DNA of 64,000 nt from an uncultured Rhodospirillaceae bacterium (GCA_964486105.1 CAZAKR010000002.1:62949-126948); one strand, 5' to 3'; positions 42,563 through 54,646 are shown, counted from the stretch's first letter. Translations and numbers: made by a program. Notes: a model not told the origin generated them from the letters alone.

Positions 42563-43381
42563 TTAGTAATTGTAAAAAAGAATCTCGCCCTTGCCATCGA
42601 CGGCGAGATCGCCGGCATAACGGTGCAGCCTGTCCCGGGAGGGATCAATGGCCCGGTTTCCCTCGGCCAGGGACTCGATATAAGACAGAAAGAGATGGAA
42701 AAACGGCAGGGCGTGAGAACCGCAATCGTTGAAGGTCGCGGGCAGGTGGGATGGCGGCTTCATCAAAAGAACGGTGCCGCGCCGCATGCCGAGCCCCAGA
42801 TTAGGCCCCGCATCGCCGAGAACAGCCAAGGAACCGGCGATCATCCGCGAGGCGCAATGACTGCCCACATCGCCTTCGATCAGGATCACGCCGCGGCGCA
42901 TCTGATCGCCGACGCGATCCCCGGCATTGCCCTCGACGCGAACTACACCGCCGTTCATGCCAACCCTGATCCCGGTCTGGGGTGCGCCGATAAAGTCGCC
43001 GGCATCGCCCTCAACATGGATATGGCCGTCTCGCATGGCGCTGGCGACATAGGCGCCGGCATTGCCGTAAACGTGAATGTCGCCGCCGGTCATGCCCTTG
43101 CCCAGGTAGGCTCCGGCATTACCCTGGACGATCAAATTGCCGCCGCTCCACTTGGCGCCAATGCCGTCGATCCTGTCGGTGCAATTATCAATCACCAGAC
43201 GCGTGCCGGGACGGCCGGTGACCTTGAAAAGATCGCCGAGAGCGCATTTGCGGTTGCCCAGTGTCAGCTTCAACGCGGCGATTTCTTTTGCCGTCTTGCC
43301 GGCTGCTATTGCCTTTGTCAGACCGCTGAGATTAACCCGCTGACGGGGGGCTTCCTTGAGGCTGAGGGTAAGACCGCTCAT
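42563..43381 (-). CDS. fhcC: FwdC/FhcC-family protein (glutamate-synthase-like beta-helix repeats), copy 2. Likely Fhc complex subunit C
   Basis: Repeated GNAGAY/GDAG beta-helix repeats typical of formylmethanofuran dehydrogenase subunit C. ATGA overlap with the upstream ftr copy. Confidence 0.8.
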   Translation of the reverse strand: MSGLTLSLKEAPRQRVNLSGLTKAIAAGKTAKEIAALKLTLGNRKCALGDLFKVTGRPGTRLVIDNCTDRIDGIGAKWSGGNLIVQGNAGAYLGKGMTGGDIHVYGNAGAYVASAMRDGHIHVEGDAGDFIGAPQTGIRVGMNGGVVRVEGNAGDRVGDQMRRGVILIEGDVGSHCASRMIAGSLAVLGDAGPNLGLGMRRGTVLLMKPPSHLPATFNDCGSHALPFFHLFLSYIESLAEGNRAIDPSRDRLHRYAGDLAVDGKGEILFYNY

Positions 43382-44274
43382 TTCATCACATCCCGCAGGT
43401 GAAAATGATAAGGCCCCAGTTTGCCGCCGTAATTACCCGCCGTAATCCGAGTCACGCCACCGGCCGGGCCGAGTTCGCAGACCGCCTCGATGCCGGCCCG
43501 CATGGCGGCGGAAATATCGGCTTCCGAGAGCCCGTCGATAACGATTTCCATCACCGATTCGGTATCCGGCGCAAGTTCGGTATGGGTGAGGCCCTTCAAG
43601 GTCGGACAAAAGGCCTCGTTGGTCGAGGCGGACAGAGCCTTGTATTTCGAGCCCACTTTTGACCCCGAACCGACAACACCTCCGGGAAAGGGCATGACCA
43701 CGTTGGGCACCTTGCTCATCGCCTTGATCGCCCGCTCTGAGGCCCGCAAAGCCATGCCACGGGTTTTCGCCAGAATGAGGAAATTACCGCCACCGATACC
43801 GGGAACCTGATAGGCATATTCCTCAACCAGAAATTCACCATCCATGATCGGGATACGCCAATAGCGCTTGCCCCCCAACTGCTTTGAAAGCTGATAGCCG
43901 TCGCCGAAATAGCGCAGCGCACCACCGAGCTTGATCTTTTTGTCGCTATAAATCCCGGCGTAACAGGCCGTGGTCGGGGTCGTCATTACGCACTGGCCGG
44001 TGCGGGTCAGCACATGCTTGGCCAGCTCCTTGCTCGACATAGCGAACAGCAACACCGACATACCGGGGCGGCTGTCGGGGGTTTCGCTCATTTTCAACTG
44101 GTGCTCAATACCGGTCTCAACACCACAGGCGATCACCGAGGTGGAAAACCCGATCATGCTGTTGGCCGCCGTAAACGCCCAGCGTTTGGTGTCGCCGGTA
44201 ATGATCAGCCGCGTTGCCTTCATGGGAAAGGCTTCGGCGAAGGTATCGTCAATCTGAATGCCGTTGATGATCAA
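43378..44274 (-). CDS. fhcD: Formylmethanofuran:tetrahydromethanopterin formyltransferase (Ftr/FhcD), copy 2
   Basis: Ftr family sequence, 298 aa, collinear with the copy at 47059..47952. Confidence 0.88.
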   Translation of the reverse strand: MIINGIQIDDTFAEAFPMKATRLIITGDTKRWAFTAANSMIGFSTSVIACGVETGIEHQLKMSETPDSRPGMSVLLFAMSSKELAKHVLTRTGQCVMTTPTTACYAGIYSDKKIKLGGALRYFGDGYQLSKQLGGKRYWRIPIMDGEFLVEEYAYQVPGIGGGNFLILAKTRGMALRASERAIKAMSKVPNVVMPFPGGVVGSGSKVGSKYKALSASTNEAFCPTLKGLTHTELAPDTESVMEIVIDGLSEADISAAMRAGIEAVCELGPAGGVTRITAGNYGGKLGPYHFHLRDVMK

Positions 44275-53333: not shown

Positions 53334-54646
53334 TATGCGCCCCTCCTCATAACCGTTTCGATGGCGCCGACAATTTCGGCAACGCTGGGCAAATCGTTAT
53401 CGCGCAATTTGCGCAGCGGCAGAGCGACAACAGAATCGGTGCGGACAATGCTTCCGGCGTGGTCGATTCCAGGGGTGGCAACGGGAAGATAAACATCCGC
53501 CCTGGGTGTCACCTTCATGCCGGGAACGCCGATCAGAACACAGGGTATATCCTTGGCGCGTTTCGGCGGCGCAAGATCGCTGCGAAAGGCCGACGTCCAG
53601 ACCAGGGCATCTGCCTCGCCTTCAGCCAAAAGCCGGCGGCCGGAAAGAAGATAGGGGTCGTGAACGGGATGTCCTTCACCAAACGCCGTGCGCAGCGGGA
53701 AACCGCTCTGCCAGGTACCGACCTGGGCAACGCCGAGCGCGTTATCGCCGCCACCGAGCGGGAAGCCGGCAAAGCGCTTTGTCTCGTTAATGTCCTTGAT
53801 GAACTCGGCGATTGCCTGAACCGCCAGATCGCCGAATGTTTCCTCGATCTGTCCGCTTGCCCAGACAATGACGCCATAGCGGGCGGCCTTGATCTTCTCG
53901 ATCAGGTTTTCAAGATCATGTATGGCGACCCCGACGGCTTGCTTCGCATCCAGGCGGCGACCGTGGTAAAGCGCCCGCAAGGTGCCGAATAATTCGGCCA
54001 GACACTTGGTGTCGTAGGAAATAAGCGTCGGCTTCTTTCCCCCCTTGGGCGGCTTGGCGGCACGCGGTATGGAGGGACCGCGACCAAGGAAAACCACCTC
54101 GCGTTCTTTTTGCAGGTTGGTAAACAGCGCTTTTTTCGGCCAGATACATTTATCGAAGAACCGCGGCGCGACGCTGGCGCCATCTGTTCCGGCGAAAATG
54201 ACGAGATCGGCGCGATTGCGAATTTCAGCCACCGTCGTCGTCATCCAGCCGCTGTTCTGCATCACCCTGAAATTACGGAAAAGCGCGTGAGAGGCCGCAT
54301 GATCGACAACCCCGCCGATGCCGTCGGCCAGCTGCATAACCGCCTTGGCCCCTTCAATATCCGTTCCCATGCCGGAAAAAAGAGGCTGGTCGCTGTTCTT
54401 CAAAATCGCCGCCGCCGCCGCCACGGCCTCATCGAAAGACGCCATTTTCCCTGCGATTCTGGGCTCCGCACCGGCAGTCGGCACTTCAAAACCCCGACGC
54501 GCCAGATCACAGCCGTTCTTGGCAATTTTTAACCCCTTGCCGTTCTTGCCCTTCCGCTCAAGAGCAAGATCGTCGCAGCAAAGGCCGCAAAACGGGCAGG
54601 GGACATTCTTAAACTGCCGGGCCGTATTTGGTGTTTTTGTGGTCAT
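53333..54646 (-). CDS. fhcB: FwdB-like protein lacking the catalytic Cys. Likely Fhc complex subunit B
   Basis: N-terminal CPFCGLCC motif but DHAASHA where copy 1 has VCHGPTG. 437 aa, 1-nt overlap with fhcA. Confidence 0.8.
   Translation of the reverse strand: MTTKTPNTARQFKNVPCPFCGLCCDDLALERKGKNGKGLKIAKNGCDLARRGFEVPTAGAEPRIAGKMASFDEAVAAAAAILKNSDQPLFSGMGTDIEGAKAVMQLADGIGGVVDHAASHALFRNFRVMQNSGWMTTTVAEIRNRADLVIFAGTDGASVAPRFFDKCIWPKKALFTNLQKEREVVFLGRGPSIPRAAKPPKGGKKPTLISYDTKCLAELFGTLRALYHGRRLDAKQAVGVAIHDLENLIEKIKAARYGVIVWASGQIEETFGDLAVQAIAEFIKDINETKRFAGFPLGGGDNALGVAQVGTWQSGFPLRTAFGEGHPVHDPYLLSGRRLLAEGEADALVWTSAFRSDLAPPKRAKDIPCVLIGVPGMKVTPRADVYLPVATPGIDHAGSIVRTDSVVALPLRKLRDNDLPSVAEIVGAIETVMRRGA

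What the first reader, a model, noticed from the sequence alone, without database searches (positions are those of the whole stretch)
42563..54646. Split and duplicated fhc locus: fhcB-fhcA and fhcD(ftr)-fhcC separated by the inserted module
Removing the fwdD..fpr block leaves a contiguous B-A-Ftr-C gene string on the minus strand. Both ftr paralogs and both C paralogs are full length and collinear, so one cannot tell from sequence which Ftr and C subunits partner with which A/B pair. The B-A-D-C order also appears reversed relative to the fhcCDAB order I recall for Methylobacterium, though I have not checked this. Two gaps (49615..49753, 139 bp; 51517..51665, 149 bp) inside the otherwise tightly packed string may hold internal promoters or processing sites.
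Basis: partly seen in the sequence, partly recalled or inferred. Interest (0 to 1): 0.5.

Follow-up and report, generated by a model that had tools for sequence, protein, structure and literature searches.

The report
Fwd dehydrogenase cassette splitting fhcBADC operon
In this marine alphaproteobacterium, a seven-gene cassette for a bacterial formylmethanofuran dehydrogenase, which carries its own formyltransferase, ferredoxin and NADPH-ferredoxin reductase, was inserted exactly between two genes of the ordinary formate-producing fhcBADC operon, so the locus holds two distinct, anciently diverged enzyme complexes, not a duplicated one.

Summary
The gene string is real. On the minus strand it reads fhcB-fhcA | fwdD-fwdB-fwdA-ftr-fwdC-fdx-fprA | fhcD-fhcC (42563-54646).

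Family-level relatives with the same flanking genes have an uninterrupted fhcBADC, with an ATGA stop/start overlap between fhcA and fhcD. In the window, 7,391 nt sit at exactly that point. A closer relative (L089, proteins 85-97% identical) already has the insert.

The cassette is a discrete unit. I recovered it in 80 loci from Gamma-, Alpha- and Betaproteobacteria, Gemmatimonadota and Chloroflexota, and at least 592 stretches in the species-representative genome collection encode a relative of its FwdB.

Paralog pairs are 32-52% identical. Cassette-context and fhc-context copies separate with 100/100 bootstrap, so the partners can be assigned:
- Ftr 47059-47952 and C 46209-47018 go with FwdDBA.
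- Ftr 43378-44274 and C 42563-43381 go with FhcBA.

B-A-D-C is the normal transcription order, also in Methylorubrum.

FwdB keeps the catalytic Cys-His-Arg and FhcB has lost them. The cassette FwdC is predicted to carry the helix-loop-helix that docks the formyltransferase in FhcC.

My inference is that the cassette oxidises the formyl group to CO2 and passes the electrons through a 7Fe ferredoxin and FprA to NADP+.

The two gaps match no Rfam family and show no unusually stable fold, but each contains a sequence block conserved in L089.

The parts
53333..54646 (-). [quoted passage not shown]
   Evidence: TIGR03129 scores 299 bits, below its cutoff of 328. It is 32% identical to the cassette FwdB. 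The catalytic Cys, His and Arg are replaced by Ala, Leu and Gly, while the four N-terminal [4Fe-4S] cysteines are kept.
51666..53333 (-). fhcA: formyl-methylofuran hydrolase (amidohydrolase)
   Evidence: TIGR03121 scores 758 bits. The best PDB match is M. extorquens FhcA 6s6y_A at 454 bits, against 419 for archaeal FwdA. The motifs around the metal ligands (HSH, K, HVH, THIQF, TDHPNG) align with those of 6s6y_A. It sits in the Fhc clade with 100/100 bootstrap.
51517..51665 (-). Left junction of the insert, the 149-bp fhcA-fwdD gap. It contains a conserved block at 51578-51637 that includes TTGACG (51622-51617), a 17-nt spacer and AAATAT (51599-51594).
   Evidence: Sequence. The block matches L089 at 58 of 60 positions, while synonymous sites are about 72-75% identical. 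No Rfam hit. Fold z-score -0.95. The promoter function is inferred.
51157..51516 (-). fwdD: cap (fourth) domain of the Mo/W-bis-pterin dehydrogenase
   Evidence: PF01568 Molydop_binding scores 38.5 bits, above its cutoff of 26.8. NF042908 FwdD scores 72.8 bits, below the cutoff of that archaeal model. It directly precedes fwdB in 72 of 80 related loci.
49754..51112 (-). fwdB: catalytic Mo/W-pterin subunit of formylmethanofuran dehydrogenase
   Evidence: TIGR03129 scores 509 bits. It scores 392 bits to archaeal FwdB 8rja_B. The AVC119H120GP motif aligns with the catalytic Cys-His, and Arg292 and the N-terminal cysteine cluster are kept. All 84 cassette-type FwdB sequences compared have C-H-R.
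49606..49753 (-). fwdB-fwdA gap (139-148 bp) with a purine-rich leader before fwdA
   Evidence: Across 83 loci this gap varies in length: median 51 bp, interquartile range 25-78 bp, maximum 360 bp. Fold z-score +0.24. The 3' 44 nt match L089 at 43 of 44 positions. No Rfam hit.
47956..49614 (-). fwdA: formyl-methanofuran-forming/hydrolysing amidohydrolase of the dehydrogenase complex
   Evidence: The best PDB match is archaeal FwdA 8rja_A at 507 bits, against 359 for FhcA 6s6y_A. It is 45% identical to the window's FhcA. It sits in the cassette clade.
47059..47952 (-). ftr (cassette copy): formylmethanofuran:H4MPT formyltransferase that belongs to the Fwd cassette
   Evidence: PF01913 and PF02741, TIGR03119 at 430 bits. 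It follows fwdA directly in 56 of 80 loci. It is on the cassette side of the 100/100 split in the Ftr tree.
46209..47018 (-). fwdC: beta-helix subunit of the cassette, with a predicted Fhc-like C-terminal helix-loop-helix
   Evidence: TIGR03122 scores 269 bits. The best PDB match by sequence is archaeal FwdC at 170 bits, covering residues 7-206 only; FhcC 6s6y_C aligns over the full length. The AlphaFold2 model has pLDDT 94.7 with helices at 224-235 and 242-246. Foldseek gives 6s6y_C TM 0.90 and rmsd 2.1 A, and 5t5i_C TM 0.89 and rmsd 3.2 A.
45824..46129 (-). 7Fe ferredoxin (Azotobacter FdI type)
   Evidence: It scores 108 bits to A. vinelandii ferredoxin I. The cysteine spacing is identical to that of FdI, by my reading of the sequence against FdI as I remember it. 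It is next to the cassette, together with fprA, in at least 52 of 80 loci.
44383..45759 (-). FprA / adrenodoxin-reductase-type NADPH:ferredoxin oxidoreductase
   Evidence: It scores 373 bits over its full length to M. tuberculosis FprA 1lqt, and 367 bits to adrenodoxin reductase.
44275..44382 (-). Right junction of the insert, the 108-bp fpr-fhcD gap, with weak terminator-like hairpins and a conserved 30-nt block followed by a Shine-Dalgarno-like AAGGG
   Evidence: Sequence. Terminator-like hits at 44381-44366 and 44356-44341. Fold z-score -0.68. TGTATCAGTATTTTTTTAACG and GTAATCACC are conserved in L089.
43378..44274 (-). fhcD: formyltransferase of the Fhc complex, TTG start
   Evidence: TIGR03119 scores 432 bits. 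It is 80% identical to the FhcD of L085. It sits in the Fhc clade with 100/100 bootstrap. The start context cTTGATCATC corresponds to cATGATCATC in L085.
42563..43381 (-). fhcC: beta-helix scaffold of the Fhc complex
   Evidence: TIGR03122 scores 259 bits. The best PDB match is FhcC 6s6y_C at 145 bits, against 119 for archaeal FwdC. It sits in the Fhc clade with 100/100 bootstrap.
54667..55083 (-). Pterin-4a-carbinolamine-dehydratase-like gene, the first co-oriented gene, 20 nt upstream of fhcB
   Evidence: PF01329. It occupies the same position in L085-L087 and L089. In many gammaproteobacterial loci it instead directly precedes fwdD.

Best explanation
The region encodes two separate, anciently diverged methylofuran/H4MPT-dependent complexes.

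(1) The canonical formyltransferase/hydrolase complex Fhc, made of FhcB, A, D and C. It converts formyl-H4MPT to free formate.

(2) A bacterial formylmethanofuran dehydrogenase cassette: FwdD, FwdB, FwdA, its own Ftr, FwdC, a 7Fe ferredoxin and an FprA-type NADPH:ferredoxin reductase.

In the ancestor of this lineage, the 7.39-kb cassette with its own flanking non-coding DNA was inserted exactly at the ATGA stop/start overlap between fhcA and fhcD. Both reading frames were preserved. The fhcD start became TTG, and fhcD gained a Shine-Dalgarno-like AAGGG upstream.

Inferred mechanism of the cassette:
- Its Ftr moves the formyl group from H4MPT to methylofuran.
- FwdA hydrolyses formyl-methylofuran.
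- The formate is oxidised to CO2 at the Mo/W-pterin site of FwdB/FwdD.
- Electrons leave through the FwdB [4Fe-4S] cluster to the 7Fe ferredoxin and then through FprA to NADP+.
- This route bypasses free formate and a separate formate dehydrogenase.
- The cassette Ftr probably docks on FwdC as FhcD docks on FhcC.

Shown here: gene content, catalytic residues, insertion point, partner assignment and the distribution of the cassette. Inferred: direction of the reaction, electron route, physical association of Ftr with FwdC, and promoter activity in the gaps.
For: Insertion:
- L085/L086 (FhcA 78%, FhcD 80%, Mtd 82% identical) and L087 share the flank CitG-RimK-Mch-ATPgrasp-Mtd-GHMP | Pcd-fhcB-fhcA-fhcD-fhcC and have no cassette.
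- L085 has an ATGA overlap between fhcA and fhcD.
- The distance from the fhcA stop to the fhcD start is -4 to +142 nt in 21 other loci and 7,391 nt in the window.
- FhcA keeps a C-terminal tail of the same length as in L085.
- L089 shares the interleaved order. Its synonymous-site divergence from the window is the same for cassette genes and fhc genes.

Cassette as a unit:
- 72 of 80 loci have fwdD-fwdB-fwdA, 56 have fwdDBA-ftr-fwdC, 40 add fdx-fpr downstream, and 12 have fpr (most with fdx) immediately upstream of fwdD.

Partner assignment:
- Neighbour-joining trees of Ftr, C and A separate the fhc-context copies from all cassette-context copies with 100/100 bootstrap (Ftr: 21 of 25 fhc-context copies fall on the fhc side).
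- The window copies fall on the expected sides.

Catalytic competence:
- FwdB keeps Cys119-His120-Arg292 and the Fe-S cysteines. FhcB has Ala, Leu and Gly at those three positions.
- In both A subunits the motifs around the metal ligands align with the solved homologues.

Electron partners:
- FprA, 373 bits to 1lqt. 7Fe ferredoxin I, 108 bits.

Ftr docking:
- The AlphaFold2 model of FwdC has a C-terminal helix-loop-helix at 224-246. In FhcC this feature binds FhcD (PMC6926001).

Thermodynamics:
- CO2/formyl-MFR is about -0.53 V (PMC11656701) and NADP+/NADPH is -0.32 V (textbook value). This favours oxidation.
Against: - There is no biochemical or expression data for any member of this cassette. 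All 80 related loci come from metagenome-assembled genomes.
- FwdC is globally about as similar to archaeal FwdC (TM 0.89) as to FhcC (TM 0.90). The docking argument therefore rests on one predicted local feature.
- I did not test the methylofuran-anchoring basic residues.
- The sigma-70 scan found no promoter on the coding strand in either gap.
- The donor of the cassette and the insertion mechanism are unknown. There are no mobile-element genes nearby, and GC3 of the cassette equals that of the flanks.
- A local rearrangement from a tandem cassette-fhcBADC layout cannot be fully excluded.
- The trees are distance-based and unrooted, with no archaeal outgroup.
Confidence: 0.72

Rival explanations
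1. Local rearrangement instead of insertion from outside. The ancestor carried the cassette immediately next to fhcBADC, as many Gammaproteobacteria do (fwdDBA-ftr-fwdC-fdx-fpr-fhcB-fhcA-fhcD-fhcC). A short-range transposition of fhcBA, or of the cassette, then produced the interleaved order.
For: Fifteen of 80 loci have the cassette directly upstream of a contiguous fhcBADC, behind the same GHMP/Mtd/ATP-grasp flank as in the window. Gemmatimonadales show a different interleaving, fhcB-A-D-[fwdDBA-ftr-fwdC]-fhcC, so such reshuffling does happen.
Against: The nearest relatives L085/L086 and L087 have Pcd-fhcBADC at this locus with no cassette on either side within 10 kb. The window's cassette proteins are closest to stand-alone cassettes in Alphaproteobacteria MAGs L003 and L004, for example FwdA 74% against 70% or less elsewhere.
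Confidence: 0.15
2. The interleaved order is ancestral, and relatives with a contiguous fhcBADC lost the cassette by deletion.
For: The closest relative, L089, shares the interleaved order, so the arrangement is stable and inherited.
Against: A contiguous fhcBADC with a 4-nt or near-zero fhcA/fhcD junction is found in L085, L088 (Hyphomicrobium), Gemmatimonadota and many Gammaproteobacteria, and in Methylorubrum (PMC6926001). Deletions that repeatedly recreated an exact ATGA overlap are implausible.
Confidence: 0.04
3. The two gene sets do not form two separate complexes. Instead they form mixed or alternative assemblies, for example one Ftr dimer or one C subunit serving both A/B pairs, and co-location in one operon reflects that.
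For: All genes are co-oriented in one 12-kb string. Both Ftr copies are equally similar to M. extorquens FhcD, at 334 and 337 bits. Both C subunits carry a homologous C-terminal region.
Against: The cassette occurs with its own Ftr and C in many loci that have no fhc genes within 10 kb, and fhcBADC occurs alone in others. Both paralog sets are kept full length and form separate clades. That is the pattern expected for dedicated partners.
Confidence: 0.07
4. Recent tandem duplication of an fhc/fwd operon, followed by divergence.
For: The gene order A-Ftr-C is repeated within the string.
Against: The paralog pairs are only 32% (B), 45% (A), 52% (Ftr) and 34% (C) identical. Each copy is far closer to orthologues in other phyla, for example FwdB at 72-78%. 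The clades separate with 100/100 bootstrap.
Confidence: 0.01

Closest known systems
Formyltransferase/hydrolase complex FhcABCD of Methylorubrum extorquens (PDB 6S6Y; Hemmann et al. 2019, PMC6926001)
   Same: The window's fhcB, fhcA, fhcD and fhcC have the same four subunit types and the same transcription order B-A-D-C once the insert is removed. FhcB lacks the catalytic Cys, His and Arg. In FhcA the motifs around the metal ligands align with 6s6y_A. FhcA and FhcC have 6s6y chains as their best PDB matches.
   Different: The operon is interrupted by 7.39 kb. The window's FhcB, and all FhcB sequences in the related loci, keep the four N-terminal [4Fe-4S] cysteines and that domain, which M. extorquens FhcB has lost. 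fhcD starts with TTG.
Archaeal tungsten/molybdenum formylmethanofuran dehydrogenase FwdABCDFG (PDB 5T5I, 8RJA, 7BKB, 9SW6)
   Same: The cassette's FwdA, B, C and D are closer to these chains than to Fhc: 507, 392 and 170 bits for A, B and C. The Cys-His-Arg active site, the Fe-S cysteines and a separate FwdD cap domain are all present.
   Different: There is no FwdF or FwdG polyferredoxin. A 7Fe ferredoxin and an FprA-type NADPH:ferredoxin reductase are encoded instead. [quoted passage not shown] FwdC has a predicted Fhc-like helix-loop-helix. The host is a bacterium whose window also encodes a COX15/CtaA-family (haem a synthesis) protein, so it presumably respires oxygen, and oxidation is the likely direction.
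F420-reducing formylmethanofuran dehydrogenase of Ca. Ethanoperedens (PDB 8RJA; PMC11493965, PMC11656701)
   Same: It is a precedent for an Fwd core working in the oxidative direction with a swapped electron-output module. It is also the best PDB match for the window's FwdA and FwdB.
   Different: Its output module is an F420 reductase. Here the output is inferred to be ferredoxin plus FprA, ending at NADP+. The host and the C1 carrier (methylofuran) also differ.
M. tuberculosis FprA with a 7Fe ferredoxin, and adrenodoxin reductase (PDB 1LQT, 1CJC)
   Same: The window's 458-aa flavoprotein matches both over their full length, at 373 and 367 bits. The neighbouring ferredoxin is of the 7Fe FdI type.
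   Different: The genomic context differs. Here the pair is embedded in a C1-oxidation cassette and would run from ferredoxin to NADP+.

Membership tests
Fhc formyltransferase/hydrolase complex | The B subunit lacks the Mo/W-pterin ligand Cys and the catalytic His and Arg (it is a scaffold only) | tested here: met
   Window FhcB has Ala, Leu and Gly at the positions of FwdB Cys118, His119 and Arg288.
Fhc formyltransferase/hydrolase complex | No FwdD cap subunit is associated with the complex | tested here: met
   Orthologous uninterrupted fhcBADC operons in L085, L087 and L088 have no fwdD. The only fwdD in the window sits directly before the Cys-bearing fwdB.
Fhc formyltransferase/hydrolase complex | FhcA is an amidohydrolase with the binuclear metal ligands (4 His, carboxy-Lys, Asp) | tested here: met
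   In the alignment to 6s6y_A, the motifs around the ligands named in PMC6926001 (His57/59/229/258, Lys176, Asp377) are conserved; I read this from the alignment and did not map individual residues.
Fhc formyltransferase/hydrolase complex | Formyltransferase (FhcD) and beta-helix FhcC are encoded with A and B in the order fhcBADC | tested here: met
   The order is B-A-[insert]-D-C. The D and C copies at 43378-44274 and 42563-43381 fall in the Fhc clades with 100/100 bootstrap. The order is as in Methylorubrum.
Fhc formyltransferase/hydrolase complex | Loss of the N-terminal [4Fe-4S] domain of the B subunit (as described for M. extorquens FhcB) | tested here: not met
   Window FhcB keeps the domain and all four cysteines (C-x2-C-x3-C...C). 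So do all 32 FhcB-type sequences in the related loci. This feature is therefore not universal in the family.
Fhc formyltransferase/hydrolase complex | Methylofuran tightly bound through a basic patch, mainly on FhcC; formate released | not testable with these tools
   This needs purified protein or a structure-based mapping of the residues in SI Fig. S13 of PMC6926001.
Fwd/Fmd formylmethanofuran dehydrogenase | FwdB has a Cys/Sec ligand, the catalytic His and Arg, and an N-terminal [4Fe-4S] motif | tested here: met
   Cys119, His120 and Arg292 align with the archaeal FwdB active site. All 84 cassette-type FwdB sequences have C-H-R and the cysteine cluster.
Fwd/Fmd formylmethanofuran dehydrogenase | A separate FwdD (molybdopterin dinucleotide-binding cap domain) | tested here: met
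   PF01568 scores 38.5 bits, above its cutoff of 26.8. The NF042908 FwdD model scores 72.8 bits, below its archaeal cutoff of 175.
Fwd/Fmd formylmethanofuran dehydrogenase | FwdA amidohydrolase and FwdC beta-helix subunits | tested here: met
   TIGR03121 scores 694 bits and TIGR03122 scores 269 bits, both above their cutoffs. The best PDB matches are archaeal FwdA and FwdC.
Fwd/Fmd formylmethanofuran dehydrogenase | A polyferredoxin electron module (FwdF/FwdG) or a coupled Hdr/F420 module | tested here: not met
   No such gene is in the cassette in the window or in the 80 loci. A 7Fe ferredoxin and FprA are found there instead.
Fwd/Fmd formylmethanofuran dehydrogenase | Formyl-MFR:acceptor oxidoreductase activity and Mo or W content | not testable with these tools
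   This needs an enzyme assay and metal analysis.

The most novel reading that the evidence does not exclude
The cassette encodes a formyltransferase/dehydrogenase complex that has not been described. In this reading, a dehydrogenase-competent Fwd core has already recruited its own Ftr through an Fhc-like FwdC helix-loop-helix, and perhaps holds methylofuran as a swinging arm. It would be the living intermediate in the Fwd-to-Fhc trajectory proposed by Hemmann et al. 2019. It would oxidise formyl-H4MPT directly to CO2 and yield NADPH through a 7Fe ferredoxin and FprA. It is widespread, with at least 592 matching stretches in the species-representative genome collection, including relatives of atmospheric-methane oxidisers (USC-gamma) and Gemmatimonadota. 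That would mean a formate-independent final step of C1 oxidation in many aerobic methylotrophs.
Probability: 0.35. Interest if true: 0.7.

Novelty: new variant of a known kind. Interest (0 to 1): 0.45.

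Why it matters
[quoted passage not shown] A 2016 survey stated that fwdD is absent from Proteobacteria (PMC5020050).

This locus and the 80 related loci show a conserved proteobacterial and gemmatimonadotal cassette with a catalytically intact FwdB/FwdD, its own formyltransferase and an NADPH-linked electron outlet. If it is active, many uncultured methylotrophs could oxidise formyl groups straight to CO2 and gain NADPH. That would change carbon and redox budgets in models of these organisms.

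Automatic annotation names both gene sets 'formylmethanofuran dehydrogenase', which hides the difference.

The split operon itself is a clean natural example of a multigene cassette inserted at a translationally coupled gene junction without damage to either gene.

Tried and rejected
- RNA families in the gaps. A gathering-threshold Rfam scan of the whole window and an E-value scan of 44200-51750 found nothing relevant.
- Stable RNA structure in the three large gaps. Z-scores were +0.24, -0.95 and -0.68, none significant.
- A conserved fwdB-fwdA spacer across taxa. Rejected: the length is highly variable, median 51 bp.
- An 11/12 direct repeat, C[T/C]CGTATCGGCA, near both ends of the insert (51651-51662 and 44342-44353), considered as an insertion footprint. 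It is absent from other loci, and the right-hand copy is not conserved in L089. My estimate is about 0.03 such matches expected by chance. I treat it as probably coincidental.
- A compositional signal of foreign origin. GC3 of the cassette genes (0.67-0.75) equals that of the flanks.
- The sigma-70 consensus scan. No hit on the coding strand in either gap.
- The closest FwdB homologue by identity (P0002, 80%) as a guide to ancestry. Its contig has a different, Chloroflexi-like context and frameshifts. FwdB is too conserved to track organismal relatedness.
- Literature searches for a description of the proteobacterial Fwd-Ftr-Fdx-FprA cassette. I found none in the held library. This is not proof that none exists.
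- Looking up the 898-aa protein at 32849-35545 for context. It is not on record.

Full report
**Observation**

The minus strand of 42563-54646 carries eleven co-oriented genes:
- an FhcB-like protein (54646-53333)
- FhcA (53333-51666)
- FwdD (51516-51157)
- FwdB (51112-49754)
- FwdA (49614 or 49605 to 47956)
- an Ftr (47952-47059)
- FwdC (47018-46209)
- a 101-aa ferredoxin (46129-45824)
- a 458-aa flavoprotein (45759-44383)
- a second Ftr, FhcD (44274-43378)
- FhcC (43381-42563)

So are gaps of 108, 79, 64, 44 and 40 bp, so the string is not otherwise uniformly tight.

Identical loci occur on independent marine metagenome contigs (L001, L002). NCBI labels the matching MAG proteins 'Rhodospirillaceae bacterium'.

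**The paralogs are old**

- The B pair is 32% identical, the A pair 45%, the Ftr pair 52% and the C pair 34%.
- The cassette FwdB scores 392 bits to archaeal FwdB. Its AVC119H120GP motif aligns with the catalytic Cys-His, and Arg292 and the N-terminal Fe-S cysteines are conserved.
- FhcB has Ala, Leu and Gly at those three positions but keeps the four Fe-S cysteines.
- FwdA and FwdC match archaeal Fwd chains best. FhcA and FhcC match the M. extorquens Fhc chains (6S6Y) best.
- Both Ftr copies match FhcD of 6S6Y best, at 334 and 337 bits.
- The flavoprotein is a full-length homologue of M. tuberculosis FprA and adrenodoxin reductase (373 bits).
- The ferredoxin is of the Azotobacter 7Fe FdI type (108 bits).

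**The fwdD..fpr block is a discrete, widespread cassette**

I scanned one genome per GTDB species with an FwdB alignment. I fetched the best 80 loci.

They are all MAGs, 71-78% identical in FwdB. They come from Gammaproteobacteria (including USC-gamma and Methylococcales), Gemmatimonadota, Alpha- and Betaproteobacteria and Ardenticatenia.

Synteny by tblastn:
- fwdD-fwdB-fwdA in 72 of 80 loci
- fwdDBA-ftr-fwdC in 56
- fdx-fpr following the cassette in 40
- fpr (most with fdx) directly preceding fwdD in 12
- all 84 cassette-type FwdB sequences with Cys-His-Arg

Fifteen gammaproteobacterial loci have the cassette directly followed by a contiguous fhcB-fhcA-fhcD-fhcC. Gemmatimonadales have fhcB-A-D-[fwdDBA-ftr-fwdC]-fhcC. 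None of the 80 has the window's order.

**Insertion**

Searching with the less conserved FhcB gave the nearest relatives. L085/L086 are 59% identical in FhcB, 78% in FhcA, 80% in FhcD and 82% in Mtd. L087 is 50% identical in FhcB and lies on a 2.07-Mb contig.

Both share the window's flank exactly: CitG-RimK-Mch-ATPgrasp-Mtd-GHMP, then Pcd-fhcB-fhcA-fhcD-fhcC. Neither has a cassette within 10 kb. Hyphomicrobium (L088) also has fhcB-A-D-C.

In L085 the fhcA stop and the fhcD start overlap as ATGA. In the window the junction looks like this:
- FhcA ends with a tail of the same length as in L085.
- After its TGA come 149 bp, the cassette and 108 bp.
- fhcD then begins cTTGATCATCAACGGC, where L085 has cATGATCATCAACGGC.

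Across 21 other loci the distance from the fhcA stop to the fhcD start is -4 to +142 nt. In the window it is 7,391 nt.

L089, a relative whose proteins are 85-97% identical, already has the same interleaved order and the TTG start. Third-codon-position identity between the window and L089 is the same for cassette genes (0.67-0.84) and fhc genes (0.71-0.75). The insert therefore predates their split.

It is met only by this very close relative, not by the next ones out.

GC3 gives no foreign signal, and there are no mobile-element genes nearby. The window's cassette is closest to stand-alone cassettes in two Alphaproteobacteria MAGs, L003 and L004.

**Partner assignment**

I labelled each Ftr, C and A sequence in the loci by context only, that is, by whether it lies downstream of a Cys-bearing or a Cys-less B subunit. 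I then built neighbour-joining trees with 100 bootstraps. In each tree one split with 100/100 support separates the two contexts.
- Ftr: 21 of 25 fhc-context copies against 0 of 65 cassette-context copies. The four exceptions belong to a third, Gemmatimonadota-specific gene set.
- C: 12 of 12 fhc-context copies. The seven 'cassette-labelled' copies on the fhc side are the displaced fhcC genes of Gemmatimonadales.
- A: 27 of 27 fhc-context copies.

The window's 47059-47952 Ftr and 46209-47018 C fall with the cassette. The 43378-44274 Ftr and 42563-43381 C fall with Fhc. So the partners can be told apart from sequence.

**Gene order**

Hemmann et al. [quoted passage not shown] B-A-D-C is the canonical transcription order, and nothing is reversed here.

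**Mechanism (inference)**

Hemmann et al. describe FhcC as the platform that binds FhcD, through a C-terminal helix-loop-helix (residues 216-246) that replaces a beta-hairpin in archaeal FwdC. They propose that Fhc evolved from Fwd in three steps: loss of the dehydrogenase, recruitment of Ftr to the C subunit, and methylofuran anchoring.

The cassette FwdC aligns with archaeal FwdC only over residues 7-206, but with FhcC over its full length. A high-confidence AlphaFold2 model (pLDDT 94.7) has helices at 224-235 and 242-246. Foldseek gives 6s6y_C TM 0.90 and rmsd 2.1 A, against 5t5i_C TM 0.89 and rmsd 3.2 A.

Ftr is almost always present inside the cassette. Together with the FwdC model, this suggests a formyltransferase/dehydrogenase complex that kept the dehydrogenase.

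With CO2/formyl-MFR near -0.53 V (PMC11656701), oxidation coupled through the 7Fe ferredoxin and FprA to NADP+ is strongly downhill. The reverse direction driven by NADPH is not plausible.

**The gaps**

- No Rfam family matches, and no gap folds unusually stably.
- The fwdB-fwdA spacer is not conserved in length across taxa.
- Against L089, where synonymous sites are about 72-75% identical, three non-coding blocks stand out:
  - 58 of 60 nt at 51637-51578. This block contains TTGACG-N17-AAATAT, a weak sigma-70-like match that the strict scan did not call.
  - 43 of 44 nt of a purine-rich leader before fwdA.
  - About 30 nt plus a Shine-Dalgarno-like AAGGG before the TTG of fhcD.
- In other lineages fwdD is the first gene of its operon, with recognisable promoter-like sequences upstream. 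It is therefore plausible that the cassette brought its promoter along. None of this is shown experimentally.

**Literature**

Chistoserdova 2016 states that fwdD is not present in Proteobacteria (PMC5020050). Wells et al. 2023 note bacterial FwdB acquired by horizontal transfer, but not the cassette (PMC10100899). I found no description of the Fwd-Ftr-Fdx-FprA cassette in the held library.

**Verdict**

The insertion reading is supported. The claims that the partners are ambiguous and that the order is reversed are wrong.

The split operon itself is a lineage-specific curiosity. The more interesting object is the cassette, a new variant of the Fwd/Fhc kind that has not been characterised biochemically.

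Noticed in passing
window 54500-54646 (FhcB N-terminus); FhcB genes in L008-L088: FhcB here, and all 32 Cys-less B subunits in the related loci, keep the four N-terminal [4Fe-4S] cysteines (C-x2-C-x3-C...C). The only structurally characterised FhcB (M. extorquens, 6S6Y) has lost that whole domain. Many Fhc complexes may therefore still carry an Fe-S cluster of unknown role.
   Followed up: partly
L005, L016, L017, L020 (Gemmatimonadota), downstream of the cassette: A third B-A-Ftr-C gene set follows the cassette. Its B subunit lacks the Cys-His (T/A/P-A at those positions) but keeps the Arg and all five cysteines. Its Ftr falls outside the main FhcD clade. It is neither typical Fhc nor typical Fwd.
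   Followed up: no
L008, L009, L011, L015, L026; L013, L054: Gemmatimonadales show independent interleavings of the same two gene sets: the cassette between fhcD and fhcC, or fhcBAD-fdx-fpr-fwdDBA-fwdC-fhcC-ftr. Mixing of the fhc and fwd operons has therefore happened more than once.
   Followed up: partly
window 51651-51662 and 44342-44353: An 11/12 direct repeat, C[T/C]CGTATCGGCA, lies 3 nt after the fhcA stop and 29 nt after the fpr stop, and each copy sits in a small hairpin. It is specific to this lineage, and the right-hand copy is not conserved in L089. It is probably chance, but an insertion footprint is not excluded.
   Followed up: yes
window 54667-55083; L027, L032, L036, L040-L045, L050, L057, L063: A pterin-4a-carbinolamine-dehydratase-like gene is the first co-oriented gene before fhcB in the alphaproteobacterial loci. 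In many gammaproteobacterial loci it comes directly before fwdD. That is a consistent but unexplained association with both operon types.
   Followed up: no
window 49754-49815 (FwdB C-terminus) and 51666-51695 (FhcA C-terminus): FwdB ends in a lysine-rich tail (GGKNKAKKETKNKKARKAA) and FhcA ends in ATKKKRAA. Such basic tails could contact the polyglutamate chain of methylofuran. This is speculation and I did not test it.
   Followed up: no
window 41684-42202: The 172-aa ORF downstream of fhcC has no Pfam hit on record and contains an HELIH motif, which is HExxH-like. It is conserved at 85% in L089 but absent at this position in L085 and L087.
   Followed up: no
L003 and L004, about 60-90 nt upstream of fwdD: The two Alphaproteobacteria MAGs closest to the window's cassette share a long inverted repeat (CCCATAACC-N5-GGGTTATGGG) upstream of fwdD. 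It is a candidate regulator-binding site and is absent from the window.
   Followed up: no
L083 (ENA ERZ25072999, 4x long-read contig): In the contig with the FwdB closest by identity (80%), ftr and fwdC are split by apparent frameshifts and fwdA is shortened. These are most likely sequencing errors at low coverage, not pseudogenes.
   Followed up: no
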